Positions 1-27,604 of a DNA stretch of 64,000 nt are shown in pieces. Numbering within the stretch: the stretch's first letter is position 1; every line of letters starts with the position of its first letter. The DNA comes from a virus: the IMG/VR virus record IMGVR_UViG_3300031841_004047, one strand, 5' to 3'. Below the pieces are notes generated by a model, which did not search any database, was not told the origin of the DNA, and saw only the letters and a program-made list of their open reading frames with translations. The position numbers and the translations under genes were made by a program.

Positions 1-849
1 AATCGCATACTTGGTACAGATAAAGACTATGTAATAGCGATTGATACCGATTCAGTCTATATCAATATGGGTCCACTCGTAAAGAAACTGAATCCTTCAG
101 ATCCAGTCAAAGCACTTGATAAGATATGTAAAGAACACTTTGAAAAAATTATTGCTGATGCTTACGGTGAGCTATTCAATAAGATGAATGCCTACACGCC
201 AAGAATGGAAATGGGAAGGGAAGTTATAGCTGATCGTGGTATCTGGATGGCTAAGAAAAGATATATTCTTAACGTACATAACAACGAAGGTGTACAATAC
301 GCTGAACCAAAACTTAAGATCATGGGTATCGAAGCAATTAAGTCTTCTACACCTGAAGTTGTTCGAGATAAGTTCAAAGAAATATTTAAAGTTATTATAA
401 CTGGAAATGAATCGGATACAAGAAAATTTATAAACAATTTTAAACAATACTTTAAATCTCTTCCTCCCGAATCAGTTGCTTTTCCTCGAGGAGTTCAAGA
501 AGTAGATAAATGGTCTGATCGTTTAAAAATCTATATTAAAGGTACACCTATTCATGTTAGAGGTGCTTTGCTATATAATCATACTATAAAAGATAAAGCA
601 CTCGAAAAGAAACATACTCTTATTCAATCTGGAGAAAAAATCAAGTTTTCTTACTTAAAAATGCCAAATCCTCTTCGTGAAAACGTGATATCTTTCCCAG
701 ATTATTTACCAAGTGAGTTGAATCTTCATAAATATATAGACTATGACACTCAGTTTGAAAAAACATTTATCGAACCCTTAAATCCAATCCTTGAAGCGGT
801 GGGTTGGTCAGTCAAAGAACAAGCAACACTAGAGGATTTTTTCGGATGA
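1..849 (+). CDS. gp43: Family B DNA polymerase, C-terminal part (5' truncated by window)
   Basis: Frame open from base 1 (NRILGTDKDYVIAIDTDSVY, palm DTDS motif); KKRY and KIMGIEAIKSSTP motifs; ends TLEDFFG, a clamp-binding-like tail. Confidence 0.97.
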   Translation, partial: NRILGTDKDYVIAIDTDSVYINMGPLVKKLNPSDPVKALDKICKEHFEKIIADAYGELFNKMNAYTPRMEMGREVIADRGIWMAKKRYILNVHNNEGVQYAEPKLKIMGIEAIKSSTPEVVRDKFKEIFKVIITGNESDTRKFINNFKQYFKSLPPESVAFPRGVQEVDKWSDRLKIYIKGTPIHVRGALLYNHTIKDKALEKKHTLIQSGEKIKFSYLKMPNPLRENVISFPDYLPSELNLHKYIDYDTQFEKTFIEPLNPILEAVGWSVKEQATLEDFFG

Positions 850-1589
850 ATAACATGAACTACGTATTCGATGTAGACGGAACACTTACACCAAGTAGGA
901 TGAAGATGGATCCTGTTTTCCAAAAGTTTTTTCTCGAGTTTGCGGATAGGAATAAGTGTTACTTAGTTACTGGTTCAGACTATGAAAAAACAGTTCAACA
1001 AGTTGGAAAAGAAATATGTGAAACAGTCATAACCGTATGGAACTGCTGCGGTAACAGCGTTTGGCAGAGAGGAGTTGAAGTTTACAGAGATTCGTGGAGA
1101 CTTCCTGATCATATGCGTAAATGGTTAGAAAAAAAGATAAAGACAAGTAAATTTAGTCTTAGAACCGGTGGCCACATTGAAGACAGACCTGGGCTGGTAA
1201 ACTTTACTGTCCTAGGAAGAAACTGCACACTTGGTGAAAGAATGCTGTATCGTCAATGGGATGAAGAAAATAACGAAAGAAAAACAATTGCAAGAGAATT
1301 TAATATTGCTTTCAACCACGAAGGTGTTGTAGCTCAAGTAGCAGGTGAAACCGGTCTTGATATAATGATGATAGGTTCTGATAAATCACAAGTAGCCATG
1401 AGCTTATTTGGACCTACGATGTTCTTTGGCGATAAGATGGAAGTGGGTGGTAATGATTACCCTTTAGCTCAGGAACTAAAACAGCGTGATGATAATGTCT
1501 GCATTGCAGTCAAAGACTGGAAAGATACACAAAAATATTTATTTGGATTGTCATATGAGGGTTTACAAGAAAGAGTAAATATTGTATAA
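846..1589 (+). CDS. HAD class IIB hydrolase, phosphomannomutase-like
   Basis: FDVDGTLT motif I, LVTGSD motif II, FFGDKMEVGGNDY motif IV as in eukaryote-type PMM; ATG at 846 overlaps gp43 stop. Confidence 0.72.
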   Translation: MNNMNYVFDVDGTLTPSRMKMDPVFQKFFLEFADRNKCYLVTGSDYEKTVQQVGKEICETVITVWNCCGNSVWQRGVEVYRDSWRLPDHMRKWLEKKIKTSKFSLRTGGHIEDRPGLVNFTVLGRNCTLGERMLYRQWDEENNERKTIAREFNIAFNHEGVVAQVAGETGLDIMMIGSDKSQVAMSLFGPTMFFGDKMEVGGNDYPLAQELKQRDDNVCIAVKDWKDTQKYLFGLSYEGLQERVNIV

Positions 1590-1590
1590 T
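1562..1590 (+). promoter_or_regulatory. sigma70-like promoter
   Basis: TTTACA-17 nt-TATAAT. Confidence 0.75.
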
Positions 1591-1609
1591 ATACAAAATG
1601 GAGAAAAAT

Positions 1610-2020
1610 ATGAGTGATTGGGCTTTTGATATCTACCAAATGCATAATAAGTTTGGTGTAAAAGAATGGTTTGAAAATAACAAACATGATAAAGAACTAA
1701 TGAAAACATACCTACGTTTTCGTTTGAATATGTGTAATGAAGAAATGGGTGAATGCTTTGATGCACTCGACAACGAAGATCCTGAAGAAATCGTAGATGG
1801 TCTTATTGATATCTGTGTATTTGCTATCGGTACTCTTGATGTCTTTGGTGTAGATGCCAATGAAGCATGGAATCGTATCTACGAAGCAAACATGGCAAAG
1901 TCACCTGGTGTGAAAGAAGGTAGACCTAATCCATTTGGTTTACCAGATCTAATCAAACCCGACGGATGGGAATCACCTAACCACGAAGGTAATCATGGAA
2001 GTCTCAGCGACCTTTTTTAA
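1610..2020 (+). CDS. All-alpha NTP pyrophosphohydrolase (MazG/PRA-PH-like), candidate dCTPase/dUTPase
   Basis: EEMGE...EIVDGLID acidic helices, ANMAK and DLIKPDGW motifs; GGAG RBS at 1600. Confidence 0.7.
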   Translation: MSDWAFDIYQMHNKFGVKEWFENNKHDKELMKTYLRFRLNMCNEEMGECFDALDNEDPEEIVDGLIDICVFAIGTLDVFGVDANEAWNRIYEANMAKSPGVKEGRPNPFGLPDLIKPDGWESPNHEGNHGSLSDLF

Positions 2021-2930
2021 AAACATATATGATAACAAAACGCACAAGCGCTTTGACTTTGAAGACTTCAGTAAGTTTGAAGAGTTCTTGTACAAGTTAT
2101 CGAGAAGAAGGCTGAAGGGTAAGAAAGACGCCGCGCTTATGTCACCCGCAACTTATGTCGAGGGTACTACACGTGCTAATAAGAACGTAGTCAGTTGGGC
2201 TGGCTGGGCAGCCATTGATGTTGATGATCACGAGTTTAAAGGAGATCTGAAAAATGAATTGGCTTCCACTCATGGTAAATGGCATTATGTTTGCTATTCT
2301 ACTGCTAGCTCTAGAGAAAGTTTACCAAAGTTTAGGCTATGTTTCCCACTTAGAACAAGAGTTGAACCAGACAAGATCAGACATTTCTGGTTCGCCCTTA
2401 ACAAAGAGTTCGGATCGCTCGGCGATGAACAAGCTAAAGATCTATCACGAATGTATTATATCCCTGGCACGTACGATGACGCTTTCAACTTTATTTTTAC
2501 TAATACTGGCGATTTTCTAGATCCTCAGACAATTATGGATAAACACTCGTATGTTGAAAAGAAAACCGGAAGCTTTCTTGACAGATTGCCCACTGAGATA
2601 CAAAAACAAATCGTAGAACATCGCAAGAAAAAAATGGACAATACTAGTATATCTTGGACTAGTTATGAAGACTGTCCTTTTGTAAATAAAAACATGATCC
2701 GTGATTTTAAAAACATCGCTCATGTCGATAATAGTGGTAGATACGCAATGATCTATAAGATTATGGTATCCATCGCAAGTAACGCAGTTGATAGGCGTTA
2801 TCCAATAAGCGTATATGAAATCGTAGAGTTAGTCAGACAGCTAGATGCTGACACGGCTCGTAGATATGAAAACAGACCATTGAATGTAGAAGCAGATAGG
2901 GCTATAGAGTATGCATACCGAAACGTTTGA
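1995..2930 (+). CDS. AEP (archaeo-eukaryotic primase) superfamily primase-like protein
   Basis: AAIDVDD (DxD), YSTASS...KFRLCFPL and KDLSRMYY motifs, helical PriCT-like C-terminus. Confidence 0.62.
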   Translation: MEVSATFFKNIYDNKTHKRFDFEDFSKFEEFLYKLSRRRLKGKKDAALMSPATYVEGTTRANKNVVSWAGWAAIDVDDHEFKGDLKNELASTHGKWHYVCYSTASSRESLPKFRLCFPLRTRVEPDKIRHFWFALNKEFGSLGDEQAKDLSRMYYIPGTYDDAFNFIFTNTGDFLDPQTIMDKHSYVEKKTGSFLDRLPTEIQKQIVEHRKKKMDNTSISWTSYEDCPFVNKNMIRDFKNIAHVDNSGRYAMIYKIMVSIASNAVDRRYPISVYEIVELVRQLDADTARRYENRPLNVEADRAIEYAYRNV

Positions 2931-3360
2931 TTATGATATGAGTTTTAATATTTCTGATATTATTAACGTCGATGAATGGCATGAAAGGGCTATGAATGAA
3001 GCTAAACAGATTCATAGTAAAAAAAGTACAAGAAGAGGTCGTACTCTTAAGGAAATTTATGAAACTTGTAAGTACGGGCATGCCGCTGAGCAGTACCTCA
3101 TAGAAACGGGTTGGACTGACGATGAAAGACCATATAAAGATTTGTTAGACCCATACCTTGATCCGGTTGAGATAAAAGTAACACAAGGAAAATACTATAT
3201 ACCATATGTTCTTGAAAGCTGCAGAAAAGCTAAGCTTGATAAATGGAGAAAATATCCAGACATAGTTTATATTTTTATAAACAATAAGAAAGACGGTGAG
3301 TACATACATGAAGGAGTGTATGTTTGGGATGGAAAAAAATTTGCAAGAAATACATTTTAG
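2911..3360 (+). CDS. Hypothetical protein, possible PD-(D/E)XK nuclease
   Basis: GHAAEQYL...KDLLDP...VEIKVT arrangement resembles the E/D/ExK catalytic triad. Confidence 0.4.
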   Translation: MHTETFDYDMSFNISDIINVDEWHERAMNEAKQIHSKKSTRRGRTLKEIYETCKYGHAAEQYLIETGWTDDERPYKDLLDPYLDPVEIKVTQGKYYIPYVLESCRKAKLDKWRKYPDIVYIFINNKKDGEYIHEGVYVWDGKKFARNTF

Positions 3361-3392
3361 GGGTTTACATTTCATGAAAAATATGTTAGTAT
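3348..3392 (+). promoter_or_regulatory. sigma70-like promoter with conserved upstream element
   Basis: AAATACATTTTAGGGG followed by TTTACA-17-TAGTAT; the 22-mer is identical to 31001-31022. Confidence 0.7.
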
Positions 3393-3425
3393 ATTTTTGC
3401 ATGAAACTTAAAGGACAAAAATAAA

Positions 3426-3995
3426 ATGGCTTACGAGGAAATAAATGGAATACAAATTATAGGCCGTTCCCCTTGGATACCTATTTCAAAAATACCAACA
3501 AAAGATACGGCTGATTTTTTAGATTTAAATGAAAAATATGGTACGTGTGGAATATACCAAGTTGCCGAAACAAAATATATAGAAGAAATAGGTAATGAAG
3601 TAATACACGATAAAATAGGCTATACTGGTAAATCAGGTAGCATTCTTCAAAGAACTTACGATATACGTCAACCAAAAGGTACTCACGGCGCTGGACGTTA
3701 TATCCGTCAAAACGATCTTTGCAAAGAAGCTGAAGTTAAAATACGCTATATTTACACATCTTCGGAAGATTATAAAAGTCTTGAAGACTATATTCATCAT
3801 GAAACAACACGTAATTATGGTTTTCGATTTGCTTGGAAAGACGCGTCACAAGGTAATGTTGGGGTATATTCACAATGGCTTGAATTATCTAAACGATTAA
3901 CAGCTGATGAAATATTATCAGGAATTCCAAATTTAAAAGAATTGGCTATAGAAAAAAACATAGAAGAATTTCAAGAAAGGTTGAATGAAGTATGA
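3426..3995 (+). CDS. GIY-YIG nuclease-like protein
   Basis: GIYQVA...IGYTGKS..ILQR and a downstream conserved Glu (SLEDYIH). Confidence 0.55.
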   Translation: MAYEEINGIQIIGRSPWIPISKIPTKDTADFLDLNEKYGTCGIYQVAETKYIEEIGNEVIHDKIGYTGKSGSILQRTYDIRQPKGTHGAGRYIRQNDLCKEAEVKIRYIYTSSEDYKSLEDYIHHETTRNYGFRFAWKDASQGNVGVYSQWLELSKRLTADEILSGIPNLKELAIEKNIEEFQERLNEV

Positions 3996-4354
3996 AAGAT
4001 AAGTACTCACTAAAGTTTCTTCAGCGTTGTGCTGAGATACAAATTAAAAAGGGTAATGATTACCAAAACCCAAACTCACGTGTAAGACAAGCACACTACT
4101 ATCCACGTGGTTGTGCTACTATTCTTGACACTATGGCAGCAAAAGTCTTACGTATGCAATCAGTTCTTGAAGCTATGGAACTTGATCCAAACTATCAGCC
4201 AAACTTTGAGTCACTTGAAGACTCGTGTGTTGATATTGCAAACTACGCTTCGTTCTTTGCTGCTTATATGAATGGTGCAATTGATGGCCAACATCCTGAC
4301 TATGATTTTCTAAATCGTCCAAAAAATAAAGTAGAACATATTAGTGAAGAATAA
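3992..4354 (+). CDS. Nucleotide modification-associated domain protein (Nmad1/DUF1599-like)
   Basis: KKGNDY...KVLR...EDSCVDIANY pattern. Confidence 0.55.
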   Translation: MKDKYSLKFLQRCAEIQIKKGNDYQNPNSRVRQAHYYPRGCATILDTMAAKVLRMQSVLEAMELDPNYQPNFESLEDSCVDIANYASFFAAYMNGAIDGQHPDYDFLNRPKNKVEHISEE

Positions 4355-4521
4355 TGTGGGTTCTGTTTGTCATAAATCCAGTCTTTGATATTGATACGCC
4401 AGCATTAAGATGGACACAATACTCAGAGTTTGAAACTCATGAAAGCTGTCTTGTAACTAAAGTCTTGATAGAGGAGCAGTTCAATATGAATGAACTGGCT
4501 ATTTGTGTTAAAGATGAATGA
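4354..4521 (+). CDS. Small hypothetical protein (55 aa, MWVLFVINP...)
   Basis: Read manually; fills the gap between neighbours with TAATG coupling to the previous stop. Confidence 0.6.
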   Translation: MWVLFVINPVFDIDTPALRWTQYSEFETHESCLVTKVLIEEQFNMNELAICVKDE

Positions 4522-4750
4522 GTTTAGAATTGGTATATTTAATCTTTTAAGAAAGATTATAGGCGGAAGCAGTGTACTTCTAGCAGTCATATATACACTA
4601 GGTCATATAATCATTGCCATGACTTGTAACTACTTAATAACCGGAGCTAGATTAGATCTTGCTGCGGTTGATGCGCTTATAGAACCTATCATTAATGGTT
4701 TCTGGTTCTATGCTTTACATAAGATTTGGAAAGGGTTTCAGAATGAGTGA
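4514..4750 (+). CDS. DUF2061-like small membrane protein
   Basis: YTLGHIIIA...TGA...AAVDALIEPIINGFWFYAL hydrophobic pattern. Confidence 0.65.
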   Translation: MNEFRIGIFNLLRKIIGGSSVLLAVIYTLGHIIIAMTCNYLITGARLDLAAVDALIEPIINGFWFYALHKIWKGFQNE

Positions 4751-5072
4751 TTATGCAGTATTAACAGCTGTTCTACAGTTTAGAACAAGATATGTCATTC
4801 CTACGAGTGACATCAAAGACTGTGATCCAGAAACTTTTATTAAAGATTCCGTGACTTGCAATGAAGTTGAAGAGTTTAGTCAATTATGTTTAAATGAAAA
4901 CATTGTTGATACACAGTTAATGTCAGAAGAAGAAGTATTAAAACTATTTGACAGAGATAATGATTATCTGGCTGGTTGGTCAAAAGAAAAGAAAATTGAA
5001 TGGATTGGAGATTGGGCAGGCCGTTGGTCAGCAGAAAATTTCAAAGATAAGGACGATGGAAATGTATCATAA
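4743..5072 (+). CDS. Hypothetical protein
   Basis: ORF coupled to both neighbours. Confidence 0.7.
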   Translation: MSDYAVLTAVLQFRTRYVIPTSDIKDCDPETFIKDSVTCNEVEEFSQLCLNENIVDTQLMSEEEVLKLFDRDNDYLAGWSKEKKIEWIGDWAGRWSAENFKDKDDGNVS

Positions 5073-5391
5073 CTGGAATCTACACAATGGGTATCTTGCA
5101 CATACTCTTGAAAACTATCTTATGCATGGATACGAGCCAGGCGGATTTACTACAGCAGTTATTGCTGGTGATTTGTTTGGTGCTGTTGCTAGAGCAGATC
5201 ACTGCAACCGTCCTGCTATTGCAGAGATCGCAGAAGCAGTACTAAACACTTGTCCTGCACATGCAGTTGGCAGTTACGAAGCTGTACGAGCATGGTGTAC
5301 AGATCTAGATGAACGCCGTAGCAAGTATGTGACTTGGAAACTACTTCAAGGACCTGTCAAACAAGAAATCGACGAAGAAGTACCATTTTGA
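5056..5391 (+). CDS. Hypothetical protein
   Basis: ORF; ATG at 5056 preceded by GGA. Confidence 0.7.
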   Translation: MEMYHNWNLHNGYLAHTLENYLMHGYEPGGFTTAVIAGDLFGAVARADHCNRPAIAEIAEAVLNTCPAHAVGSYEAVRAWCTDLDERRSKYVTWKLLQGPVKQEIDEEVPF

Positions 5392-5403
5392 AAGGATTAA
5401 ACA

Positions 5404-5658
5404 ATGCGCTATAAAACTATAACTGTAGATGTAAATGTAGATGCAGATGTTTATATAGGTGATATCATCGACAGTTTGGACGATGAAGATCTGATCGACG
5501 AACTCAACAGACGTGGCTACATTGTAAACAAAGATACACACCCTGGCGGATTTGACCGAGAAGATTTGCAATTTCTACTTGAAATCATAGATCAAATACC
5601 TGAAACAATATATACTCGTAGAGTAAGAGATAAACTAATGAGGGCTCGTTTTGGCTAA
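5404..5658 (+). CDS. Hypothetical protein
   Basis: ORF with AGGA RBS. Confidence 0.7.
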   Translation: MRYKTITVDVNVDADVYIGDIIDSLDDEDLIDELNRRGYIVNKDTHPGGFDREDLQFLLEIIDQIPETIYTRRVRDKLMRARFG

Positions 5659-5839
5659 GGTAACAATGGTAGATCCACCCAGTGGTTGGAAGTATGGCTT
5701 TCCTAAACCGTTGCCTGCAGATTATCCAGAGGGCGAAAGCATCTTTCCGTGGCTATTAAGTGAAGGCTATCCTCAGAAAGAGATAGACAACTGCGGCAAA
5801 CACTTTTATTGTAGGTATTGGGAAGAGGAAACAGAATGA
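5651..5839 (+). CDS. Hypothetical protein
   Basis: TTG start; VDPPSGWKYGFPK segment typical of small phage proteins. Confidence 0.6.
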   Translation: MAKVTMVDPPSGWKYGFPKPLPADYPEGESIFPWLLSEGYPQKEIDNCGKHFYCRYWEEETE

Positions 5840-5863
5840 AAGAACTATGGATGGTGAAAAATA

Positions 5864-6346
5864 ATGAGTAAAGCAGGTAAAGTATGGGGTACAACTGAAT
5901 TAATTGAAGCCAATGGTGCTTTAGAGTTTCATCGTATTCAAATGAATAAAGGGGGCGTTTGTTCTAAACATCTTCATGAGTTCAAATGGAATGGGTTCTA
6001 TGTCGAAAGGGGCGTAATGTTGGTTCGTGTCTGGCAGAAAGATTATAATCTAGTGGATGAGACTATTCTATATGAAGGAGATTATACGAAAGTAAAACCG
6101 GGTCTTTATCATCAGTTTGAATGTCTAGAGTCTGGCGTTGCTTACGAACTCTATTGGGCCGAGTTTGCTCATAAAGATATTGTAAGAGAAACTGTTGGAT
6201 ATAAAGAAGAAGGCATGATCCATGATAGCTCTTATTCTTTAAATATTCCAGATATTACCTTTACAATTGATGGAGAAGATGTTAAAATAAACACAGAAAC
6301 TTACACTCTATATGATAAACTAGACGTAGAAAAAATCGGTTGTTAA
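5864..6346 (+). CDS. Cupin-fold protein (sugar isomerase-like)
   Basis: KVWG N-terminus, SKHLHEFK metal motif 1, PGLYHQF motif 2. Confidence 0.75.
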   Translation: MSKAGKVWGTTELIEANGALEFHRIQMNKGGVCSKHLHEFKWNGFYVERGVMLVRVWQKDYNLVDETILYEGDYTKVKPGLYHQFECLESGVAYELYWAEFAHKDIVRETVGYKEEGMIHDSSYSLNIPDITFTIDGEDVKINTETYTLYDKLDVEKIGC

Positions 6347-6445
6347 TTCAAGACTTAATAACAGTAAGTCCGGTGATTGTAATTATCTCCATAATTATTA
6401 TATGGCCAAGTGCGGTAGAAGAATGGAGAAAGAGAAAGAATAAAA

Positions 6446-7291
6446 ATGAGTAGATCTTTAAAGATTACTATTATAGGTCATGGGTTTGTCGGGAAAGCCA
6501 TTGATTATGCTTTTCAGTATAACGTTCAAAAACAAATCATAGATCCTAAAATAGGAGTAAACTTGAGTGACGTAACATTAAACTCCGATGTTACGTTCGT
6601 ATGCGTGCCGACTCCTATGCACGAAAATGGAAAGTGTGACATATCAATAATAAGTGAAGTCATAAAACAAATAAAGCAAAGAAGATCTGGTTTGATAGTT
6701 ATTAAGTCTACCGTTCCACCTGATCAAATAGAAAATCTTTTTAGAGGTACAGCTATATCAAGAATGGTTTACAACCCAGAGTTTCTTACAGAAAGAAATG
6801 CAAATGAAGATATACTAAATCCTTCGATGCATATTTTCGGAGGAGATAATAATGCTACCGAAAGACTAGAAAAAATATATAATGAGTACAGTATATGTAA
6901 ACCATGTCAAGTATTTCATGTTTCTGCTACTGACGCAAGTTTTATAAAATACGGAATAAATACTTTTCTTGCAACTAAACTAATATGGTTCAATGAACTA
7001 TATGACACAGTAAATAATTTTGGAGGCAACTTTGGAAAAATTGCAAACGCTATTGGGGCCGATCCAAGAATCGGACATTCCCATACTCGTGTTCCTGGGT
7101 TTGACAATCGTCGTGGTTTTGGTGGTGCATGTTTTCCCAAAGATGTAAGCGCTTTTGTCAACTTTACGGATCATATGCCTATCTTAGAATATGTTATGAA
7201 TAAAAACAACAATTATAGATTGTCTTATGAAAAAAATGATAGAGAAGTCGAACAAAACGTGAACTATGAGAATAAGAAAGAGAGTATATAA
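6446..7291 (+). CDS. UDP-glucose/GDP-mannose dehydrogenase family protein lacking the C-terminal domain
   Basis: IIGHGFVG Rossmann motif, CVPTP, KSTVPP, YNPEFL, catalytic Lys (IKYGINTFLATK), GFGGACFPKD catalytic Cys; only 281 aa. Confidence 0.85.
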   Translation: MSRSLKITIIGHGFVGKAIDYAFQYNVQKQIIDPKIGVNLSDVTLNSDVTFVCVPTPMHENGKCDISIISEVIKQIKQRRSGLIVIKSTVPPDQIENLFRGTAISRMVYNPEFLTERNANEDILNPSMHIFGGDNNATERLEKIYNEYSICKPCQVFHVSATDASFIKYGINTFLATKLIWFNELYDTVNNFGGNFGKIANAIGADPRIGHSHTRVPGFDNRRGFGGACFPKDVSAFVNFTDHMPILEYVMNKNNNYRLSYEKNDREVEQNVNYENKKESI

Positions 7292-7980
7292 TGATAATCC
7301 CTAGTGTAAAAGATATTCGTGAGTTCTTTGTCGGTGAACTTAAAGACGAAGCTTATACTATAGATAAGACCGGAGCTAAGACTATAGAAATGATTGGTGC
7401 TTCGTTCATAGCCGATGAGTCTTCTATATTTGGTACACCTAATACCGACTACATATCTCAAGAAATGTTGTGGTATACAAGCATGTCGACAAATATTAAA
7501 GACATATACGGAGAACACAGAGACCCGCCTTCTGCATGGCAGTATGCCGCGAACCAATTTGGTGAGATTAACTCTAACTACGGTTTGTTAATATATTCCG
7601 AAAAGTATTACAGCCAGTTTGAAAGAGTGTGTGACGAGTTGTTTGAAAACCCTGATGGTCGAAGAGCAACTATGATTTATAACAGACCATCGATATGGGT
7701 GGAGTATAATGAAAATGGAAAATCAGATTTTATTTGTACTAACGCTGTCACTTACTATATTCGTGATAATCTACTGCATGCTGTAGTTCAAATGCGTTCC
7801 AATGATGTTGTGTATGGTTATAAGAATGACTGGGCATGGCAAAACCGAGTGATGCACGACATAGTTCATGATCTTAATTTCTCAAATGGAAATGAAGATT
7901 TGGAAGTAGGTAAGATGGTTTGGCAGGTTCAGAACTTGCATGTATATGAACGTCACTTTGATCTAGTAAAAAATATTTAA
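7291..7980 (+). CDS. gp42: dCMP hydroxymethylase-type enzyme (thymidylate synthase fold)
   Basis: Collinear with T4 gp42: DKTGAKTIE, GEINSNYG, DFICTN (Cys149), MRSND, YKND (Asp180, equivalent to the dCMP-specific T4 Asp179), LHVYERHF. Confidence 0.92.
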   Translation: MIIPSVKDIREFFVGELKDEAYTIDKTGAKTIEMIGASFIADESSIFGTPNTDYISQEMLWYTSMSTNIKDIYGEHRDPPSAWQYAANQFGEINSNYGLLIYSEKYYSQFERVCDELFENPDGRRATMIYNRPSIWVEYNENGKSDFICTNAVTYYIRDNLLHAVVQMRSNDVVYGYKNDWAWQNRVMHDIVHDLNFSNGNEDLEVGKMVWQVQNLHVYERHFDLVKNI

Positions 7981-7990
7981 GGATGTTCTT

Positions 7991-8224
7991 ATGAGCAATT
8001 TGATATTGATCACCGATATCCTTGAAACAAAAGTAAGAAAAGAAAAAGAACTACAGTACTATCAGAAAGAATTAGAAAAACTTCAGAAAAAAATGTTCTT
8101 TGTTAAAAAGGATATTGAACTAACAAACCTGATCATTAATATGATTGAGAAAGAAAATATAATAGACTTTAAAGAGCAAGTCTTAATACGACAGGAAAAA
8201 AATGATACCACCTCAGATAATTAA
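7991..8224 (+). CDS. Small coiled-coil hypothetical protein
   Basis: ORF with AGGA RBS, charged heptad pattern. Confidence 0.65.
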   Translation: MSNLILITDILETKVRKEKELQYYQKELEKLQKKMFFVKKDIELTNLIINMIEKENIIDFKEQVLIRQEKNDTTSDN

Positions 8225-8684
8225 GATTTTTGAAAAAGATATGGCTAAAGGTCTTCACTGGACCACTGTGATCACCGAAAGAGCAATGCTAGCAGTAATA
8301 GGTGCTTTAACTGTAATCGCAGCTAGTTTTAATGTGTACTCAATGATAGTATCAATGAAGATAGAATTAGCGGATTTGTTTCTTTTATTCATCTATACAG
8401 AAATAGTCGGCATGGTTGGTGCTTACTACATAAGTAATAGGATACCAGTTACTCTTCCTATCATTATAGCTATGACTGCTTTATGTAGGCTTATTATTCT
8501 TCATTCTAAAGATGCTAACCCATGGGTACTAGTAGCAGAAGCTGGAGCGATCGTCGTTCTAGCCGGAGCCGCGTATCTCATGAGTGCTAAGGAAAAACTA
8601 AGCCTGGAAAAGAAAGAAAAGCGAAAAAAAGAATATGATGCGGGGTTCAAAAAGACAGAAAAAAAAGATTTAGACGATGAATAG
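8202..8684 (+). CDS. psiE: PsiE family membrane protein
   Basis: LADLFLLFIYTEIVGMVGAYY...RIPVTLPIIIAMTALCRLII, four hydrophobic segments. Confidence 0.8.
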   Translation: MIPPQIIKIFEKDMAKGLHWTTVITERAMLAVIGALTVIAASFNVYSMIVSMKIELADLFLLFIYTEIVGMVGAYYISNRIPVTLPIIIAMTALCRLIILHSKDANPWVLVAEAGAIVVLAGAAYLMSAKEKLSLEKKEKRKKEYDAGFKKTEKKDLDDE

Positions 8685-9126
8685 TAGGTATACTAAATGG
8701 GATAGAAGATATCTGGATCTGGCATATACGGTTAGTAAATGGTCAAGAGATCCATCAACACAAATCGGCGCGGTCGCGATTGGATCCAAGGGTCAAGTTT
8801 TATCTCAAGGTTATAACGGCTTTCCTAGAGGAATAAAAGATACTCTAGATCGATATCATCATAGAGAAACTAAATATAAGCTTATTGTTCATGCTGAACA
8901 AAATTTAATATACAATGCTACATACAATGGTGTCTCATTGGATGGATCTACACTGTATGTAACGGGACTTCCGGTTTGTTCCGAATGTGCTAAAGGTGTT
9001 ATACAAGTCGGTATCAAAAGAGTTGTTATGCCACATATAGATGATATGAAATCTTGGAAAGAATCTTGGGAGTTGTCTGCTTCTATGTTCAGAGAAGCCG
9101 GAATATTATGGGATTTCATAATATAA
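8677..9126 (+). CDS. cd: dCMP deaminase
   Basis: SRDPSTQIGA, GYNG, HAEQN and PVCSECAK zinc motifs. Confidence 0.92.
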   Translation: MNSRYTKWDRRYLDLAYTVSKWSRDPSTQIGAVAIGSKGQVLSQGYNGFPRGIKDTLDRYHHRETKYKLIVHAEQNLIYNATYNGVSLDGSTLYVTGLPVCSECAKGVIQVGIKRVVMPHIDDMKSWKESWELSASMFREAGILWDFII

Positions 9127-9158
9127 AAATTTTAATTTTTTGATTGATCACTTTATAG

Positions 9159-9187
9159 TTTACATAACTATACTACTATGATATAAT
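9159..9187 (+). promoter_or_regulatory. sigma70-like promoter with extended -10
   Basis: TTTACA-17-TATAAT with TG at -15/-14. Confidence 0.8.
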
Positions 9188-9207
9188 AACAAAAAATAGG
9201 AAAAACA

Positions 9208-9702
9208 ATGAAAATAAAAAGCTTAATAGTCATGGGTCTTAATCCTTCTAAGAGTCCATCACGAAAAGGTTCTACTATCCCAAAGCTACACTCTTGGATG
9301 TATGACAGCCTAGAAGTAGACTCATTCTTTATGTCTAATGTTTCTCATGATCCAGACTGGGATTTTAAATATAGATCTATAGATAAAAATCATGTCATTG
9401 AAACTTTAAGAGATCATGATATCATAATAGCTTTAGGTAGCACGGTGTATAACTACTTAAAGAGGATGGGGTTTAAGAATATGTTTAAGCTTCCTCATCC
9501 ATCACCTAGGAATCGTCAGTTAAATGACAAATCTTTCGAAATAAAAATTTTAAATGAATGTAAAGAGTATTTGACTCAGGAAGGCTTCTATGAAAATAGC
9601 AATAGGCAAAGTGGGAAAATCAATAAAGTTTGGTCCGGAGTCGTTAAGCACCGGAAAAAAATCAATGACGGCGGGCTCGATAGATGCACGTGTAATCTTT
9701 GA
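9208..9702 (+). CDS. Uracil-DNA glycosylase superfamily protein
   Basis: MGLNPS (motif A-like), SNV, IIALG, LPHPSPRN (motif B); reading frame overlaps the next gene by 113 nt. Confidence 0.7.
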   Translation: MKIKSLIVMGLNPSKSPSRKGSTIPKLHSWMYDSLEVDSFFMSNVSHDPDWDFKYRSIDKNHVIETLRDHDIIIALGSTVYNYLKRMGFKNMFKLPHPSPRNRQLNDKSFEIKILNECKEYLTQEGFYENSNRQSGKINKVWSGVVKHRKKINDGGLDRCTCNL

Positions 9703-10828
9703 ACTTTTAATTAGGTTTAATCCACAACACACGTTTTATATAGTTGGTAGATCAAACTATTCTCGTCTTAAACCTGAGATAAGAGATAAGATCAACGTTC
9801 ATAACAACGTTGTTGATCTGTGGAGTGGTTTTAACGAGTGGTTTGATAATCAAGACGATAAAGATGAAATGACGGAGTCATGGAGGTACATGGATCACGT
9901 CATTGAATCCGGACATACATTTGACACGGGTATATTTATTGCAGGAGGAGTACTTGAGTACGCGGTTCAAGGAAAAACTCTAAAGAACGGCGAACCTATT
10001 AAAACTTTAAACGCAGCGACTAAGTATGCAGCTCCTATTCATCACTTCATAAATATTACGAAGCTACCATACGTGATGCTGGTCACTGATCCAAGATGCT
10101 ACCCGAAACCAACAAAAGATCTTATGGTACCACCTCGTAGAATATTGTCTCAGTACGATGAAGTTGTAGACGTCGAACATCGTGTAACTTATGAGGATGA
10201 CGATATGGTCATCGATAAAGTTAAATCCGTATACTCCGGTATAGAATCTCTATACGTAGTCGAAGAACAGTGGAACGAAAAAGAAACAAGTCTTGAAGAC
10301 TTCTTTGGTGATCCAGACCCAGCCCCTGAACGTGACATCAACATGGTACTATTCCTAAACGAAGGTAACCCTTCAAGATATGAAGACTTAAAGAAATATA
10401 TCTTAAATGACATAGAAGATGTTAACGTCTATGGAGTATGGAACGATAAAGCTTTACAAGATCCACGAATAGAGCAGATAGCGATGGCTGAGCTTACTCA
10501 TCTTTTCCCTAGGATTAGATACACGTTTTGTATACCAATCGCTCCCGGTTGGGCGACCGGAAAGTTTTGGGAGATGACTAAGTACGGAATCATTCCGTTT
10601 ATGCATCCGAGTTATGATGAAGGTAAAAACATTGGTTTTCCAGAGGAGCTAAGAGTTAAAGATTCAAAAGATTTGTTAGAAAAAATAAGTATGTACAACT
10701 CTGATAAATTATGTTATAATAATATACATGAAAGGCTTCAGAATATGGTCACTCCGGATCATAAATCTGGCAAGTTTATAAATGATATGGTTATGAAAAA
10801 TGTTATGGAGATAGTCAATGAAGATTGA
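9590..10828 (+). CDS. DNA glycosyltransferase, T4 beta-glucosyltransferase-like (GT-B)
   Basis: Ordered matches to T4 BGT: MKIAI, LVTDPR (FTDIR), ILSQ (VISQ), GIESLY (PIEQY), TGKFWE (TLRVWE), VKDSKDLLEKI (VNNRAELIDRV). Confidence 0.72.
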   Translation: MKIAIGKVGKSIKFGPESLSTGKKSMTAGSIDARVIFELLIRFNPQHTFYIVGRSNYSRLKPEIRDKINVHNNVVDLWSGFNEWFDNQDDKDEMTESWRYMDHVIESGHTFDTGIFIAGGVLEYAVQGKTLKNGEPIKTLNAATKYAAPIHHFINITKLPYVMLVTDPRCYPKPTKDLMVPPRRILSQYDEVVDVEHRVTYEDDDMVIDKVKSVYSGIESLYVVEEQWNEKETSLEDFFGDPDPAPERDINMVLFLNEGNPSRYEDLKKYILNDIEDVNVYGVWNDKALQDPRIEQIAMAELTHLFPRIRYTFCIPIAPGWATGKFWEMTKYGIIPFMHPSYDEGKNIGFPEELRVKDSKDLLEKISMYNSDKLCYNNIHERLQNMVTPDHKSGKFINDMVMKNVMEIVNED

Positions 10829-11150
10829 AAAAAGACATATTTCTGAGTTTACTGGTGGATGGTTTATTGGAAACTTTGAGCCATCGGTTCTTAAAAGCGA
10901 TGATTTCGAAGTATCAATTAAGCTGCATCCTAAGGGAGAAGTTTGGCCAAAGCATTATCACAAAGTGGCTACCGAGTATAACTATGTGATAGACGGCATA
11001 GTAGAAATAGATGGCATAAAATATGAAAAAGATGACATCTTCATTATTCATCCAAACTTTGTCGTAGATCCCAATTTTCTTGAAGACTGCAGAATAGTAT
11101 GTGTAAAAACACCATGCGTACCTGGAGATAAGTATGAGGTTGAAAGATAA
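10818..11150 (+). CDS. Small cupin protein
   Basis: GWFIGNFEPS, HYHKVATE cupin motif, KTP...DKY end; type seen in polysaccharide loci. Confidence 0.75.
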   Translation: MKIEKRHISEFTGGWFIGNFEPSVLKSDDFEVSIKLHPKGEVWPKHYHKVATEYNYVIDGIVEIDGIKYEKDDIFIIHPNFVVDPNFLEDCRIVCVKTPCVPGDKYEVER

Positions 11151-12215
11151 ATGAGAGTAATTATTCCAATGGCCGGACTGGGGTCAAGATTTACAAACAA
11201 GGGATATAAGACACACAAACCGTTAATCGAAGTTAACGGTAAAACTCTTATTAGATACGCAGTTGAGTCATTAAACATAAGTGCTCATTACGTATTCGTA
11301 TGTAGGGACTTAGGAGGTTCATACCTTGAAAACTTAGAATCAGAAATAAAAGACATTACTTACGGTCGATACGAAATAAAAGTAATAGATCATATGACGT
11401 CTGGAGCAGCAGAAACCGCTCTTTTAGGTTGTGATAGCGAGTATGACGGAGAATTAATTGTCACCAACTGTGATCAGTATTTAGACTGGGACTCTGAAGC
11501 TTTCCTTAAAGAATCAAGAAAATATGATGGTTCTGTACTAACTTACGACTCGACTGATCCTAAAAATTCTTTCGTAGAGTTCGCGAACAAAAAAGTAGTA
11601 AGAATGGTCGAGAAACAAGCTATATCAAACAATGCTTTAGTAGGAGTACACTACTGGAAAAAAGCATCGGATTTCATTAACTCTACTAAATCTTCTCTAG
11701 CTAACTTTACCTCAAAAGAATCTTATGTGTCTGAAACATATAACTACTTAATAGCTGATGGTAAAAAAATTGGAGCAATATCAATTATGGATGGTACTTA
11801 TTGGTCCACCGGAACTCCTGAAGATCTGGCATATTTCAAAGGGATGATATCCGAATATTATACCTCTAAAAATAATACATATTTTATTGATCTTGATGGT
11901 ACAATCTTTATGCATGCACATAGGTACTCCAACTTAAAAAATGATGTTCAGTTGTGTCCAGGTGTTCTTGAAACTTTAGATGAACTTGATTCGAGAGGTG
12001 ATACGATCATACTTGTTTCGGCAAGAAAAGAGTCTGCGAGATCAATGACTGAGAAATTACTTGATGATTTCATGATTCCTTATGATCAGCTTATACTTGG
12101 TGTATCTCAAGGATGTAGGATAGTCATAAACGATATTATCACGAAGTCATCTTTTCCAAGAGCAAGAGCCGTGAATGTAATCACGGACAAAGGATGGAAA
12201 GCAAACGATTTATGA
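11151..12215 (+). CDS. Sugar nucleotidyltransferase fused to a C-terminal HAD phosphatase-like domain
   Basis: IIPMAGLGSRF...KPLI, VTNCDQ, GTPEDL; C-terminal FIDLDGT. Confidence 0.82.
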   Translation: MRVIIPMAGLGSRFTNKGYKTHKPLIEVNGKTLIRYAVESLNISAHYVFVCRDLGGSYLENLESEIKDITYGRYEIKVIDHMTSGAAETALLGCDSEYDGELIVTNCDQYLDWDSEAFLKESRKYDGSVLTYDSTDPKNSFVEFANKKVVRMVEKQAISNNALVGVHYWKKASDFINSTKSSLANFTSKESYVSETYNYLIADGKKIGAISIMDGTYWSTGTPEDLAYFKGMISEYYTSKNNTYFIDLDGTIFMHAHRYSNLKNDVQLCPGVLETLDELDSRGDTIILVSARKESARSMTEKLLDDFMIPYDQLILGVSQGCRIVINDIITKSSFPRARAVNVITDKGWKANDL

Positions 12216-13402
12216 ATTATGCGAGTATAGTACCTTTAATCGGAGGAGAGACATTCGGTATGCAAGAAGTGTTTGGTCAAAAGCCAGACTACATCTTATC
12301 ATACTCGGATTTTGAAGCAAATGATAGACAACTTCTTAACTATTATAATAATAGTGTTCCTTATTATAAGCTTGATCAAGGTGGTTCTGCCCCTCACAGA
12401 GTGGATGTTATCAATACTGTATGCCCTTGTGCGGGTCTTTCTTCACTTAGTCCTACTAGCAGCGCTAGTAACACTACTAATGATTGGATGGTCAAGTCTG
12501 CCCAGTATATTCTAGAAGAAGTACAACCGACTGTCTTTTGGGGAGAAAATGCTCCTAGACTAGCCAGCAAGATGGGTGAGCCTATAGTAAATAAGCTAAG
12601 GAAGATCGGGAAAGATAATGGTTACACCATGACTCTTTATAAAACAAAATCTTTACTTCATGGCTTATCTCAAGTAAGAGACAGATGCTTTTACTTCTTT
12701 TGGAAAGGCAACCATGTTCCAGTTTTTGCATACTACAACAACTTATTAAGGGAGAGTATCGAAGATACTATAAGGTCATCATCTAGTAATCAAATAGACG
12801 AAATGTATGATATGCAGGCCAAGACTTCTAAGCCTTCAGATGATCCATACTATAAATATGTTTTAGAAGAGATTGAAGATGGTATAACACATCAAGATTT
12901 TTTTAAAAAAATTAAAAAAACTACCAATCCATTGGATTATATCGAGCAAAAAGGTATTAAATATAATACTGTAGCTAAGTGGATGAAGATGAAGGGATAT
13001 GACAAGTATGAAGTCAAATGTCAAAGAATGCATGAAAAGCTTGAGTCTGGTGGAAACATAATGAGAAAGGCTACTACAATCGCAAAGGATTATATCGGCG
13101 CTTTTGTAGGTAACATGGCAACTGACATTACACACCCTGATGTTGATAGGTACATAAACGTAAGAGAAGCTCTTGATATAATGAAGATGCCTAAAGATTT
13201 TCAGCTTCAAGGAGGAACAAAAAACATTAATATGATATGTCAAAACGTTCCGGTTACTACTGCTAGAGATATGGCTTTTAATGTATCAGCATACCTAGGA
13301 GGACATTTAACTACTCATAAATCTGATTTTGCTGTTCAGGATAATAAAACAACTAAGTTTTGGAGAGAGCCTGAACCCTCAACTCTTGAAGAGTTTTTGT
13401 AG
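12212..13402 (+). CDS. C5-cytosine methyltransferase-fold protein with atypical motif I
   Basis: CPCAGLS (IV), GENAP (VI), QVRDR (VIII), HP...REA...PKDF (IX), QNVP (X); motif I reads IVPLIGG instead of FxGxGG. Confidence 0.78.
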   Translation: MNYASIVPLIGGETFGMQEVFGQKPDYILSYSDFEANDRQLLNYYNNSVPYYKLDQGGSAPHRVDVINTVCPCAGLSSLSPTSSASNTTNDWMVKSAQYILEEVQPTVFWGENAPRLASKMGEPIVNKLRKIGKDNGYTMTLYKTKSLLHGLSQVRDRCFYFFWKGNHVPVFAYYNNLLRESIEDTIRSSSSNQIDEMYDMQAKTSKPSDDPYYKYVLEEIEDGITHQDFFKKIKKTTNPLDYIEQKGIKYNTVAKWMKMKGYDKYEVKCQRMHEKLESGGNIMRKATTIAKDYIGAFVGNMATDITHPDVDRYINVREALDIMKMPKDFQLQGGTKNINMICQNVPVTTARDMAFNVSAYLGGHLTTHKSDFAVQDNKTTKFWREPEPSTLEEFL

Positions 13403-14510: not shown

Positions 14511-14800
14511 TTGAGAATGAACATTATGAACTTATTCCATCCGACAATGAGAACTGGAACGTTAGAATTCTAAAAGGTATATACAATGAGACCGTCATAA
14601 CGTATGGATCCCTTAGAATACAGGATGATCCAATAAATGATGTAGGAATATTAAAGTTTGATTATGATATTGTCTCTACGCCGGATGAATCTCTAGACTC
14701 AAATGACGAAGACTTTAAAAATTTTTGTGGTGACATCCTCGTATCAATAATTGAAAGAGCTGTTGAAAAAGACCAGATAATTAAAAGAGAGGTTGAATGA
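14507..14800 (+). CDS. Hypothetical protein at the gp40 (head assembly chaperone) position
   Basis: Lies between uvsX and gp41 as T4 gene 40 does; sequence similarity not established. Confidence 0.4.
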   Translation: MIENEHYELIPSDNENWNVRILKGIYNETVITYGSLRIQDDPINDVGILKFDYDIVSTPDESLDSNDEDFKNFCGDILVSIIERAVEKDQIIKREVE

Positions 14801-24305: not shown

Positions 24306-24307
24306 TT

Positions 24308-26201: not shown

Positions 26202-26207
26202 TTATAA

Positions 26208-26858: not shown

Positions 26859-26859
26859 T

Positions 26860-27597: not shown

Positions 27598-27604
27598 GGA
27601 AAAG

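What the first reader, a model, noticed from the sequence alone, without database searches (positions are those of the whole stretch)
826..13399. Polymerase clamp-binding peptide reused by both DNA-modifying enzymes
Seen: gp43 ends TLEDFFG (826-846); the BGT-like enzyme has SLEDFFG in an acidic loop (10289-10309); the C5-MTase-fold protein ends TLEEFL (13382-13399). The codons differ, so the match is at protein level rather than a DNA duplication. Known: T4-family polymerases bind the gp45 clamp through a C-terminal hydrophobic peptide, and an interaction between T4 alpha-glucosyltransferase and gp45 has been reported. Inference: modification is clamp-coupled and occurs at or just behind the fork. 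It also implicates the MTase-fold protein as a processive enzyme acting on phage DNA.
Basis: partly seen in the sequence, partly recalled or inferred. Interest (0 to 1): 0.78.

Follow-up and report, generated by a model that had tools for sequence, protein, structure and literature searches.

The report
Clamp-docking peptide shared by polymerase and DNA modifiers
In this marine T4-like phage the short tail peptide that ties the DNA polymerase to the sliding clamp also sits, conserved across hundreds of relatives, on the DNA glycosyltransferase and on a cytosine-methyltransferase-fold enzyme, which suggests that DNA modification is tethered to the replication clamp.

Summary
gp43 ends ATLEDFFG*, a BGT-fold glycosyltransferase (GT) carries SLEDFFG in a flexible acidic inter-domain loop, and a C5-methyltransferase-fold protein (MT) ends STLEEFL*. 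Chance expects 0.009 such hits in the window's proteome; three were seen (0 of 20,000 shuffles).

The motif is conserved. In 80 related viral loci the core motif lies in the last 16 residues of 37/37 polymerases and 69/71 MTs, against 1% of other ORFs.

The strongest result concerns the GT family. One clade (47 of 51 members) carries the peptide in an inserted loop. The sister clade lacks the loop and carries the same peptide at its C-terminus (17 of 20). No member has both. That is the behaviour of a portable docking motif.

T4 gp43, gp55 and gp33 end in the homologous SLDFLFG, SLDFLY and TLDFLL clamp epitopes. Homologues in phages without gp45 lack the motif. An unrelated Dam methylase in phage C48C1 also ends STLDAFFG.

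Binding to gp45 remains inferred. The T4 alpha-GT–gp45 precedent was not reproduced in a 2025 preprint, and T4's GTs lack the motif.

Verdict: a new set of clients for a known kind of motif, and worth bench testing. Another window of this scan flagged the same peptide trio on this genome.

The parts
1..849 (+). C-terminal 282 aa of the family-B DNA polymerase gp43 (the window starts inside the gene)
   Evidence: phrog_262 DNA polymerase E 6e-110. 65% identical to the Phage C48C1 polymerase and 51-57% to the cyanophage gp43s listed or re-checked.
826..846 (+). gp43 C-terminal peptide TLEDFFG. This is the lineage's version of the T4-family sliding-clamp-binding epitope.
   Evidence: It occupies the same position as T4 gp43 ...KASLDFLFG. 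37 of 37 related polymerases end in L[ED]xFF-type tails.
9590..10828 (+). GT-B DNA glycosyltransferase, BGT-like fold. It sits at the position of T4 beta-gt (gp42 .. GT .. uvsX).
   Evidence: AF2 model has pLDDT 87. Top PDB fold hits are T4 BGT 1qkj/1nzd/1j39, E 2e-10. Synteny with T4 is shown. No Pfam family reaches threshold.
10253..10336 (+). Inserted acidic inter-domain loop of the GT (aa 222-249) that carries the motif
   Evidence: Low pLDDT (<50 at residues 230-235; the 231-240 block averages 50), with a short helix at 235-239. The loop is 25-44 aa long in one clade and 17-22 aa in the sister clade.
10289..10309 (+). Internal SLEDFFG motif in the GT
   Evidence: It is conserved as [STG]L[DE]xFF in 47 of 51 members of the loop clade.
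12212..13402 (+). C5-cytosine-methyltransferase-fold protein (396 aa counted from Met7 of the ORF that starts at 12194)
   Evidence: PF00145 at 59.6 bits against a cut-off of 22. Homologues are 395-397 aa long. AF2 model has pLDDT 92.6. Fold hits are CmoX 8yf3, M.HhaI, M.HaeIII and DNMT1.
13382..13399 (+). C-terminal TLEEFL motif of the MT-fold protein
   Evidence: L392 and F395 are kept in >=90% of 28 diverse homologues, and the motif follows a variable 8-20 aa linker. 69 of 71 complete homologues in related loci carry it. The pLDDT of the tail drops to 68.
7291..7980 (+). gp42-type dCMP hydroxymethylase. It supplies 5hmC, the likely substrate base for the GT.
   Evidence: PDB 1b49 (T4 dCMP hydroxymethylase) E 4e-71, with the Asp of the NDxAWQ motif kept. 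It lies within the fetched flanks in 63 of 80 GT loci.
11151..12215 (+). Nucleotidyltransferase-HAD fusion between the GT and the MT (probable NDP-sugar supply)
   Evidence: NTP_transf_3 and HAD hits fall just below the Pfam cut-offs; phrog_3980 E 1e-54.
10818..11150 (+). Conserved 110-aa protein of unknown function inside the GT-MT operon
   Evidence: phrog_24762 E 8.5e-33. It is present only in the closest relatives.
13461..14510 (+). UvsX recombinase (synteny anchor)
   Evidence: phrog_97 E 2e-91; T4_UVSX_C.
14797..16173 (+). gp41-type replicative helicase (synteny anchor)
   Evidence: phrog_19 E 3e-121.
43754..43987 (+). Candidate gp33 late-transcription co-activator, next to gp32. Its tail ...QNELLFE does not show the polymerase-type motif.
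   Evidence: Weak phmmer hit to T4 gp33, E 0.003. Homologues are present in G001 and G002. gp32 lies at 44068-44988.

Best explanation
[ST]-L-[ED]-x-F-[F/L/I/M] is this lineage's form of the T4-family sliding-clamp (gp45) docking epitope. gp43 carries it at its C-terminus, where it gives the polymerase processivity. The 5hmC-DNA glycosyltransferase displays the same epitope on a disordered acidic inter-domain loop, or on a C-terminal tail in a sister clade. The C5-methyltransferase-fold enzyme displays it on a short C-terminal tail behind a variable linker. Both enzymes would therefore be clients of the gp45 'toolbelt'. Clamps loaded on replicating phage DNA would recruit them and let them slide along fresh duplex, so that 5hmC made through gp42 is modified promptly and along long stretches.

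Shown here: the motif exists, is non-random, is conserved, is portable between positions, is exposed, and matches the polymerase's own tail.

Taken from published T4/RB69 work: this kind of tail binds gp45, the tails are interchangeable between proteins, and the epitope still works when internal.

Inferred: that the GT and MT peptides bind gp45, the timing at or behind the fork, processivity, and the chemistry the MT-fold enzyme performs.
For: (1) Rarity. The strict motif is expected 0.009 times in the window proteome and was seen 3 times; 0 of 20,000 shuffles reached 3. These are the only three hits of the looser pattern in six frames.

(2) Conservation. Nearly all of 120 MT homologues end in TLE[AES]F[ILFM]. 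L392 and F395 are near-invariant after a variable linker in 28 sequences down to 31% identity. In 80 IMG/VR loci the broad motif lies in the last 16 aa of pol 37/37 and MT 69/71, against 48/4818 other ORFs.

(3) Portability. Of 73 non-redundant GTs, 47 carry the motif in the inserted loop, 17 at the C-terminus and none at both. The two states form two well-supported clades, with SH-aLRT 93 and 95.

(4) Exposure. The GT loop has pLDDT <50. The MT tail is the least confident part of a model with mean pLDDT 92.6.

(5) Link to gp45. T4 gp43, gp55 and gp33 end in SLDFLFG, SLDFLYEAND and TLDFLL. The review PMC2988020 states that these C-termini are the clamp epitopes, that they are interchangeable, and that they still work when made internal in gp55-gp33 fusions. 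gp55 of the complete relative G001 ends PLTDFFDK, and C48C1 gp55 ends DLSEWMED. gp45 homologues are present in G001, G002 and C48C1.

(6) Negative controls. The S-TIM5 MT homologue and the Enterococcus phage Planchet GT homologue come from genomes with no detectable gp45, and both lack the motif.

(7) Independent recurrence. The unrelated D12-class Dam of C48C1 ends STLDAFFG next to a gp43 that ends ATLEDFFG. The P-TIM40 Dam tail PLEVMYAG resembles its polymerase tail TLEAMFG.
Against: No binding data exist, and no complex could be modelled with the tools available. The window's own gp45 lies upstream of the window and could not be read.

Pseudoalteromonas phage XG4 has gp45, and its polymerase ends SLDDLFM, yet its GT and MT homologues lack the motif. 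gp55 of G002, G003 and G004 shows no clear motif. The gp33 candidates of this clade do not carry the polymerase-type peptide.

The only reported GT-clamp interaction, T4 alpha-GT with gp45, was not reproduced in a 2025 preprint, and T4's GTs and Dam lack the motif.

A few GTs inside the loop clade have degenerate loops: P0075, P0082 and L022.
Confidence: 0.72

Rival explanations
1. The shared peptide docks all three proteins to a common partner other than gp45. Candidates are the host beta-clamp (whose motif is QL[SD]LF-like), the clamp loader, gp32, or another phage hub protein.
For: Many MT tails read LQLDEFMV or LQLDQFMV. From my own knowledge, not tested here, QLDEF resembles the bacterial beta-clamp pentapeptide. 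gp55 and gp33 of several relatives lack the motif, so not every expected gp45 client carries it.
Against: The polymerase's own tail carries the motif at the exact position where T4 and RB69 gp43 bind gp45. The motif is found only in genomes that encode gp45. gp55 of G001 and of C48C1 carries related tails.
Confidence: 0.13
2. The peptide is an intrinsic structural or catalytic element of each enzyme, such as a hinge in the GT or a capping helix in the MT. It resembles the polymerase tail only by convergence in composition.
For: AF2 draws a short helix over LEDFF in both models. The GT motif sits at the inter-domain hinge.
Against: Within one enzyme family the motif sits either in the loop or at the C-terminus, never both. 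It is joined by linkers of variable length and sequence. It is the lowest-confidence part of both models. Homologues from phages without gp45 fold without it. An unrelated Dam carries it too.
Confidence: 0.05
3. The peptide is a degradation, localisation or packaging tag (for example timed proteolysis, or targeting to a replication compartment) rather than a clamp tether.
For: Short hydrophobic C-terminal tags are common degrons. Nothing in the sequence excludes a second role.
Against: There is no precedent for this in T4-family phages. The polymerase shares the tag, and its tail has a demonstrated clamp function. The motif works from an internal loop in most GTs, which is unusual for C-terminal degrons.
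Confidence: 0.05
4. Chance resemblance with no function.
For: The motif is only 6-7 residues long, and the pattern was defined after it was seen.
Against: 0 of 20,000 shuffles reached the observed count. The motif is conserved to about 30% identity in two enzyme families. The background among other ORF tails is 1%.
Confidence: 0.02

Closest known systems
T4-family sliding-clamp (gp45) binding epitope at the C-termini of gp43, gp55 and gp33 (the RB69 polymerase peptide-clamp co-crystal; review PMC2988020)
   Same: It is a short hydrophobic and acidic peptide on a flexible linker. It occupies the same position on gp43. T4's SLDFLFG, SLDFLY and TLDFLL compare with [ST]LEDFF here. The epitope is known to be interchangeable between proteins and to tolerate an internal position.
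   Different: The clients here are DNA-modifying enzymes (a GT, a C5-MT-fold protein, and Dam in C48C1), not the polymerase or late-transcription factors. The register differs (L-E-D-F-F against L-D-F-L-F). In most GTs the epitope is naturally internal.
Eukaryotic DNMT1-PCNA coupling through a PIP box (my own knowledge, not tested here)
   Same: A C5-cytosine-methyltransferase-fold enzyme carries a short clamp-docking peptide that would couple DNA modification to replication. DNMT1 is also among the top fold matches of the MT.
   Different: The clamp, the motif and the lineage are all different, so this is an analogy and not homology. Here C5 of cytosine is probably already hydroxymethylated by the gp42 route, so the chemistry may not be methylation.
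Reported T4 alpha-glucosyltransferase-gp45 interaction (Sommer et al. 2004, cited as ref. 20 in bioRxiv 10.64898/2025.12.06.692756)
   Same: It proposes the same idea: glycosylation of hmC coupled to the replisome clamp.
   Different: T4 a-gt and b-gt contain no gp43-like peptide, and the interaction was not reproduced in vitro or in vivo. In the present lineage there is explicit, conserved sequence evidence.
T4 beta-glucosyltransferase (BGT)
   Same: It is the best structural match. The genes share a genomic position between gp42 and uvsX. gp42 co-occurs with the GT.
   Different: Sequence identity is only 9-11%, and there is no Pfam match. The protein here is 60 aa longer, carries the inserted motif loop, and lies near phage-encoded sugar-nucleotide genes (PMM, NTP-transferase-HAD, UDP-Glc/GDP-Man dehydrogenase-like), so the sugar is probably not plain glucose.

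Membership tests
T4-family gp45 clamp-binding epitope | Short hydrophobic and acidic peptide closely similar to the C-terminus of the same phage's gp43 | tested here: met
   TLEDFFG (gp43), SLEDFFG (GT) and TLEEFL (MT).
T4-family gp45 clamp-binding epitope | Presented at a terminus or on a flexible, poorly conserved linker outside the folded domain | tested here: met
   The MT tail follows a variable 8-20 aa linker, and its pLDDT falls to 68. The GT loop has pLDDT <50. An internal epitope works in engineered gp55-gp33 fusions.
T4-family gp45 clamp-binding epitope | Conserved among orthologues, and the genome encodes a gp45 clamp | tested here: inconclusive
Conservation is met. gp45 was found in the relatives C48C1, G001 and G002.
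T4-family gp45 clamp-binding epitope | Physical binding to gp45, competed by the gp43 C-terminal peptide | not testable with these tools
   No multimer prediction or experiment was available.
C-5 cytosine DNA methyltransferase (PF00145) | Profile match above the curated threshold, with catalytic motifs IV (PC), VI (EN), VIII (QxRxR) and X (QNVP) | tested here: met
   59.6 bits against a cut-off of 22. P72, C73, E112, N113, Q154, R156, R158, Q344, N345, V346 and P347 are invariant in 28 homologues. Fold hits are M.HhaI, HaeIII and DNMT1.
C-5 cytosine DNA methyltransferase (PF00145) | Canonical AdoMet-binding motif I (FxGxG) and a demonstrated methyl transfer to cytosine C5 | tested here: not met
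   Motif I reads (I/V)PLIGG throughout the family, and the Pfam alignment starts only at profile position 58. Activity cannot be tested here. gp42 co-occurrence suggests that C5 is already occupied.
T4 beta-glucosyltransferase family | GT-B fold most similar to BGT, and a genomic association with dCMP hydroxymethylase | tested here: met
   1qkj E 1.9e-10, TM 0.52-0.66. gp42 lies in the flanks of 63 of 80 loci. Synteny with T4 is shown.
T4 beta-glucosyltransferase family | Sequence-level membership (Pfam BGT family or a PDB sequence hit) | tested here: not met
   No PDB sequence hit at E<=1. The only Pfam hit is a sub-threshold Glyco_trans_1_2 match.
gp42 dCMP hydroxymethylase | Close homology to T4 gp42, with Asp in place of the Asn that specifies dUMP in thymidylate synthase | tested here: met
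   1b49 E 4e-71. The query's KNDWAWQ aligns with T4's RNDYAWQ.

The most novel reading that the evidence does not exclude
In a large clade of marine T4-like phages the gp45 trimer acts as an assembly line for DNA hypermodification. It holds the glycosyltransferase and the C5-MT-fold enzyme on newly made 5hmC DNA, and in some phages Dam as well. The MT-fold enzyme has an altered AdoMet motif and always co-occurs with gp42 and the GT. In this reading it is not a methylase but a clamp-tethered enzyme that processes 5hmC or its glycoside through a Cys-C6 adduct.
Probability: 0.2. Interest if true: 0.85.

Novelty: new variant of a known kind. Interest (0 to 1): 0.66.

Why it matters
Whether phage DNA modification is physically coupled to the replisome has been open since the disputed T4 alpha-GT–gp45 report. 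Here three unrelated DNA-modifying enzyme families carry the polymerase's own clamp-docking peptide. Natural variants place the peptide either in a loop or on a tail. This turns the question into a simple experiment: peptide binding, FF-to-AA mutants, and activity on clamp-loaded against naked DNA. It would also be a bacteriophage counterpart of the DNMT1–PCNA coupling of eukaryotes. It adds new clients to the T4 clamp 'toolbelt'. It gives a sequence signature for picking out enzymes that act on replicating phage DNA in metagenomes, including the puzzling MT-fold protein in a 5hmC genome.

Tried and rejected
1. Megablast of 14 kb against 50,697 phage genomes found nothing. The nearest isolate is C48C1, and only at the protein level.

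2. No whole genome is held for this window. As a result the phage's own gp45 and gp55, which lie upstream of the window, could not be read.

3. I looked for the motif on other expected clamp clients. The candidate gp33 (43754-43987) and its homologues lack a polymerase-type tail. gp55 carries it in G001 and loosely in C48C1, but not in G002, G003 or G004.

4. The MazG at 1598-2020 ends GSLSDLF and looked like a fourth client. Its homologues end NHGD[LI]DxAM, so this stretch is part of the fold; rejected.

5. The top fold hit of the MT is the carboxymethyltransferase CmoX (8yf3). The profile match is only the generic C5-MT core, on a par with MET1 and HaeIII, and the CmoX paper does not mention clamps. 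There is no specific link.

6. No TET/JBP-type dioxygenase turned up among the ORFs I annotated between 0.8 and 16 kb. The 5hmC route here is the pre-replicative gp42 route, not the MT+TET route.

7. The cyanophage Dams of P-HM1, Syn19 and S-RIM2 have no tail motif, so the Dam case is lineage-restricted.

8. A literature search found no paper that describes clamp-binding peptides on phage GTs or MTs.

Full report
OBSERVATION. A six-frame scan of the whole 64-kb window for the looser pattern L[ED][DE]F[FLY] returns only these three sites. For the strict pattern [ST]LE[DE]F[FL], the residue frequencies of the window's roughly 20,560 aa of non-overlapping ORFs predict 0.009 occurrences. Three are present; none of 20,000 shuffles reached three and two reached two. 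All seven codons differ between the gp43 and GT copies, so the similarity is at the protein level.

WHAT THE PROTEINS ARE. The window is part of a marine T4-like myovirus with 36.8% G+C. It has no close DNA relative among 50,697 phage genomes.
- Frame 1-849 is the C-terminal third of gp43. It matches phrog_262 at E 6e-110 and is 65% identical to Phage C48C1 of the Kyanoviridae.
- ORF 9590-10828 has no Pfam family and no PDB sequence hit. Its AF2 model (pLDDT 87) matches T4 beta-glucosyltransferase best (1qkj, E 1.9e-10).
- ORF 12194-13402 probably starts at Met7 (position 12212), giving 396 aa like its homologues. It is a PF00145 C5-cytosine methyltransferase-fold protein at 59.6 bits. Its model has pLDDT 92.6 and resembles CmoX, M.HhaI, M.HaeIII and DNMT1.
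- ORF 7291-7980 is a clear gp42 dCMP hydroxymethylase (T4 enzyme 1b49, E 4e-71, specificity Asp retained).
- The gene order gp43 … gp42 … GT … MT – uvsX … gp41 mirrors T4's gp43 – gp42 – beta-gt – uvsX – gp41.
- Sugar-nucleotide genes lie close by: phosphomannomutase, a UDP-Glc/GDP-Man dehydrogenase-like protein, a cupin and an NTP-transferase–HAD fusion.
The picture is a 5hmC genome that is glycosylated after replication.

CONSERVATION IN THE MT FAMILY. Nearly all of 120 database homologues (61-100% identity) end in TLE[AES]F[ILFM]. I aligned 28 diverse members reaching down to 31% identity. The catalytic motifs are invariant. After the last conserved Q-x-N comes a linker that varies in length (8-20 aa) and in sequence. 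The motif follows, with L392 and F395 kept in at least 90% of sequences.

CONSERVATION AND RELOCATION IN THE GT FAMILY. Homologues down to about 35% identity keep [STG]L[DE]xFF inside an inserted acidic loop. More distant homologues lack the whole loop. Those loop-less homologues carry the same peptide at their C-terminus, for example STLEDFFA, ATLEDFFG, TTLEDFFS, NSLEDFFS and IGLESFF. Among 73 GTs made non-redundant at 85% identity, 47 have the motif in a 25-44-aa loop, 17 have a short 17-22-aa loop plus a C-terminal motif, 9 have neither, and none has both. On a maximum-likelihood tree the two states form two clades: 51 rows of which 47 are 'loop' (SH-aLRT 93), and 20 rows of which 17 are 'C-terminal' (SH-aLRT 95). 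A peptide that is kept while its position in the protein changes is the hallmark of a portable linear docking motif.

SPECIFICITY ACROSS 80 RELATED LOCI. In the 80 IMG/VR loci fetched around GT homologues, the MT is present in 77, gp42 in 63 and the end of gp43 in 37. The broad motif L[EDQSTN]xF[FLIMT] occurs in the last 16 residues of 37/37 polymerases, 69/71 complete MTs and 16/80 GTs; most of the remaining GTs carry it in the loop. It occurs in 48 of 4,818 other six-frame ORFs, which is 1%. With a stricter tail pattern, 73 of 77 positive ORFs are pol, MT or GT. In the complete 201-kb relative G002 four ORFs have the C-terminal motif: pol, GT, MT and one 138-aa protein. Shuffling gave a mean of 0.22 and a maximum of 2.

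EXPOSURE. The GT motif lies between the N- and C-terminal Rossmann domains, in the least confident segment of the model. pLDDT is below 50 at residues 230-235, with a five-residue helix over LEDFF. The MT motif is the last six residues, beyond the final strand, and pLDDT falls there to 68.

LINK TO THE CLAMP. T4 gp43 ends KASLDFLFG, gp55 ends SPSLDFLYEAND and gp33 ends NTLDFLL. The review PMC2988020 states four relevant points:
- They can be freely interchanged.
- An 11-residue RB69 polymerase tail was co-crystallised with the clamp.
- A gp55 epitope made internal in gp55–gp33 fusions still works.
Cyanophage polymerases end SLEFLFG, TLDFLFA, TLEAMFG, SLESFFT and NLDSFFS, which bridge the T4 form and the [ST]LEDFF form seen here. 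In the complete relative G001, gp55 ends GPLTDFFDK; in C48C1 it ends SDLSEWMED. gp45 homologues are present in C48C1, G001 and G002. Conversely, the MT homologue of cyanophage S-TIM5 and the GT homologue of Enterococcus phage Planchet lack the peptide, and their genomes have no detectable gp45.

A THIRD ENZYME FAMILY. In C48C1 the gene right after gp43 (…ATLEDFFG) is a D12-class N6-adenine Dam methylase (PF02086), unrelated to the MT here. It ends …ESTLDAFFG. Some cyanophage Dams have tails that echo their own polymerase: P-TIM40 has SPLEVMYAG against ATLEAMFG. Others have no tail at all: P-HM1, Syn19 and S-RIM2.

EVIDENCE THAT DOES NOT FIT NEATLY.
- Pseudoalteromonas phage XG4 has gp45, and its polymerase ends SLDDLFM, but its GT and MT homologues lack the motif.
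- gp55 of G002, G003 and G004 shows no clear motif.
- The gp33 candidates of this clade, including window 43754-43987 next to gp32, lack a polymerase-type tail.
T4 a-gt, b-gt and dam carry no such peptide. A 2025 preprint found no alpha-GT or beta-GT interaction with gp45, either in vitro or by in-vivo pull-down.

MECHANISM. The best reading is that both enzymes are clients of the clamp toolbelt. Clamps loaded or left behind on replicating phage DNA would recruit them and let them scan fresh duplex, so that 5hmC is decorated quickly. The steps that are shown, taken from published T4/RB69 work, or inferred are separated under the best explanation. I put 0.72 on gp45 as the partner and about 0.9 on the peptide being a selected docking motif of some kind. 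The main rival is another shared partner. Many MT tails read LQLDEFMV, which loosely recalls the bacterial beta-clamp pentapeptide.

THE MT-FOLD PROTEIN. The MT is itself odd. Motif I is (I/V)PLIGG rather than FxGxG throughout the family. It co-occurs with gp42 and the GT, so cytosine C5 should already be occupied. Its tail argues that it acts on clamp-bearing phage DNA, whatever its chemistry.

NOVELTY. I found no paper that describes clamp-docking peptides on phage glycosyltransferases or methyltransferases. The motif class is known; the clients, the natural internal placement and the loop/C-terminus switch are new. I therefore rate this a new variant of a known kind.

LIMITS. The window start is not in IMG/VR. 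The phage's own gp45 and gp55 could therefore not be read, and no multimer prediction was available. Earlier notes of this scan flagged the same peptide trio from another window of this genome, and placed gp45 about 6 kb upstream of this window. I used those notes only as leads.

Noticed in passing
L001:20875-21759 (Phage C48C1, OQ984149.1 33480-34364): A D12-class N6-adenine Dam methylase lies directly downstream of gp43 and ends ESTLDAFFG. This is the same clamp-type peptide as its polymerase (ATLEDFFG). It is a third, unrelated DNA-modifying enzyme family that carries the motif.
   Followed up: partly
L122 (P-TIM40 Dam) and L127 (P-TIM40 gp43); L123 and L124 (ACG-2014f): Some cyanophage Dam proteins have short C-terminal extensions (SPLEVMYAG, NPLEVVLYG) that resemble their own polymerase tails (ATLEAMFG, SLESFFT). 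The Dams of P-HM1, Syn19 and S-RIM2 have no extension.
   Followed up: partly
window 12212-12260 and alignment A2: The C5-MT-fold family has (I/V)PLIGG in place of the AdoMet-binding motif I FxGxG. It almost always co-occurs with gp42 dCMP hydroxymethylase and the GT. A methylase of C5 makes little sense in a 5hmC genome, so the enzyme may do other chemistry.
   Followed up: partly
window 9208-9702: A UDG-superfamily ORF (PF03167, E 1.7e-5) overlaps the start of the GT gene by 113 nt in another frame. Homologues at 32-42% identity accompany the GT in 19 of 80 loci.
   Followed up: no
window 846-1589, 5864-7291, 11151-12215: A phage-encoded sugar-nucleotide toolkit lies around the GT: a eukaryotic-type phosphomannomutase, a cupin, a truncated UDP-Glc/GDP-Man dehydrogenase-like protein and an NTP-transferase-HAD fusion. 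PMM, the cupin and the dehydrogenase were found in none of the 80 related loci, so this phage's sugar may be unusual.
   Followed up: no
window 22953-29184: A second glycan-type cluster: a HAD-NTP-transferase fusion with the opposite domain order to 11151-12215, two SAM-methyltransferase-like ORFs and two family-25 glycosyltransferases.
   Followed up: no
window 7291-9126 and 17013-17849: gp42 dCMP hydroxymethylase, dCMP deaminase and a ThyX thymidylate synthase are all present, together with two MazG-like pyrophosphohydrolases (1598-2020 and 3992-4354) that could act as the dCTPase.
   Followed up: no
window 1598-2020: This MazG ends GSLSDLF, which looks like a clamp motif. Homologues next to gp43 in G002 and G003 end NHGDIDKAM and NHGDLDCAM, so the stretch probably belongs to the fold.
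   Followed up: yes
window 43754-43987: A 77-aa candidate gp33 lies just upstream of gp32 (44068-44988). Its tail QNELLFE and those of its homologues (…TATLE, …VTELC) lack the polymerase-type epitope, unlike T4 gp33 (…TLDFLL).
   Followed up: partly
window 8202-8684, 33195-33941, 34978-36129: Auxiliary genes: a PsiE-like phosphate-starvation protein, a class-3 lipase and an IMPDH/GMP-reductase-family protein.
   Followed up: no
L096 (Pseudoalteromonas phage vB_Psh_XG4, PP712099.1 1-8110): An unannotated T4-like isolate carries the same GT … MT module at 30% identity, with two extra ORFs between the genes, but no clamp motif on either enzyme. It would serve as a natural negative control and is culturable.
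   Followed up: partly
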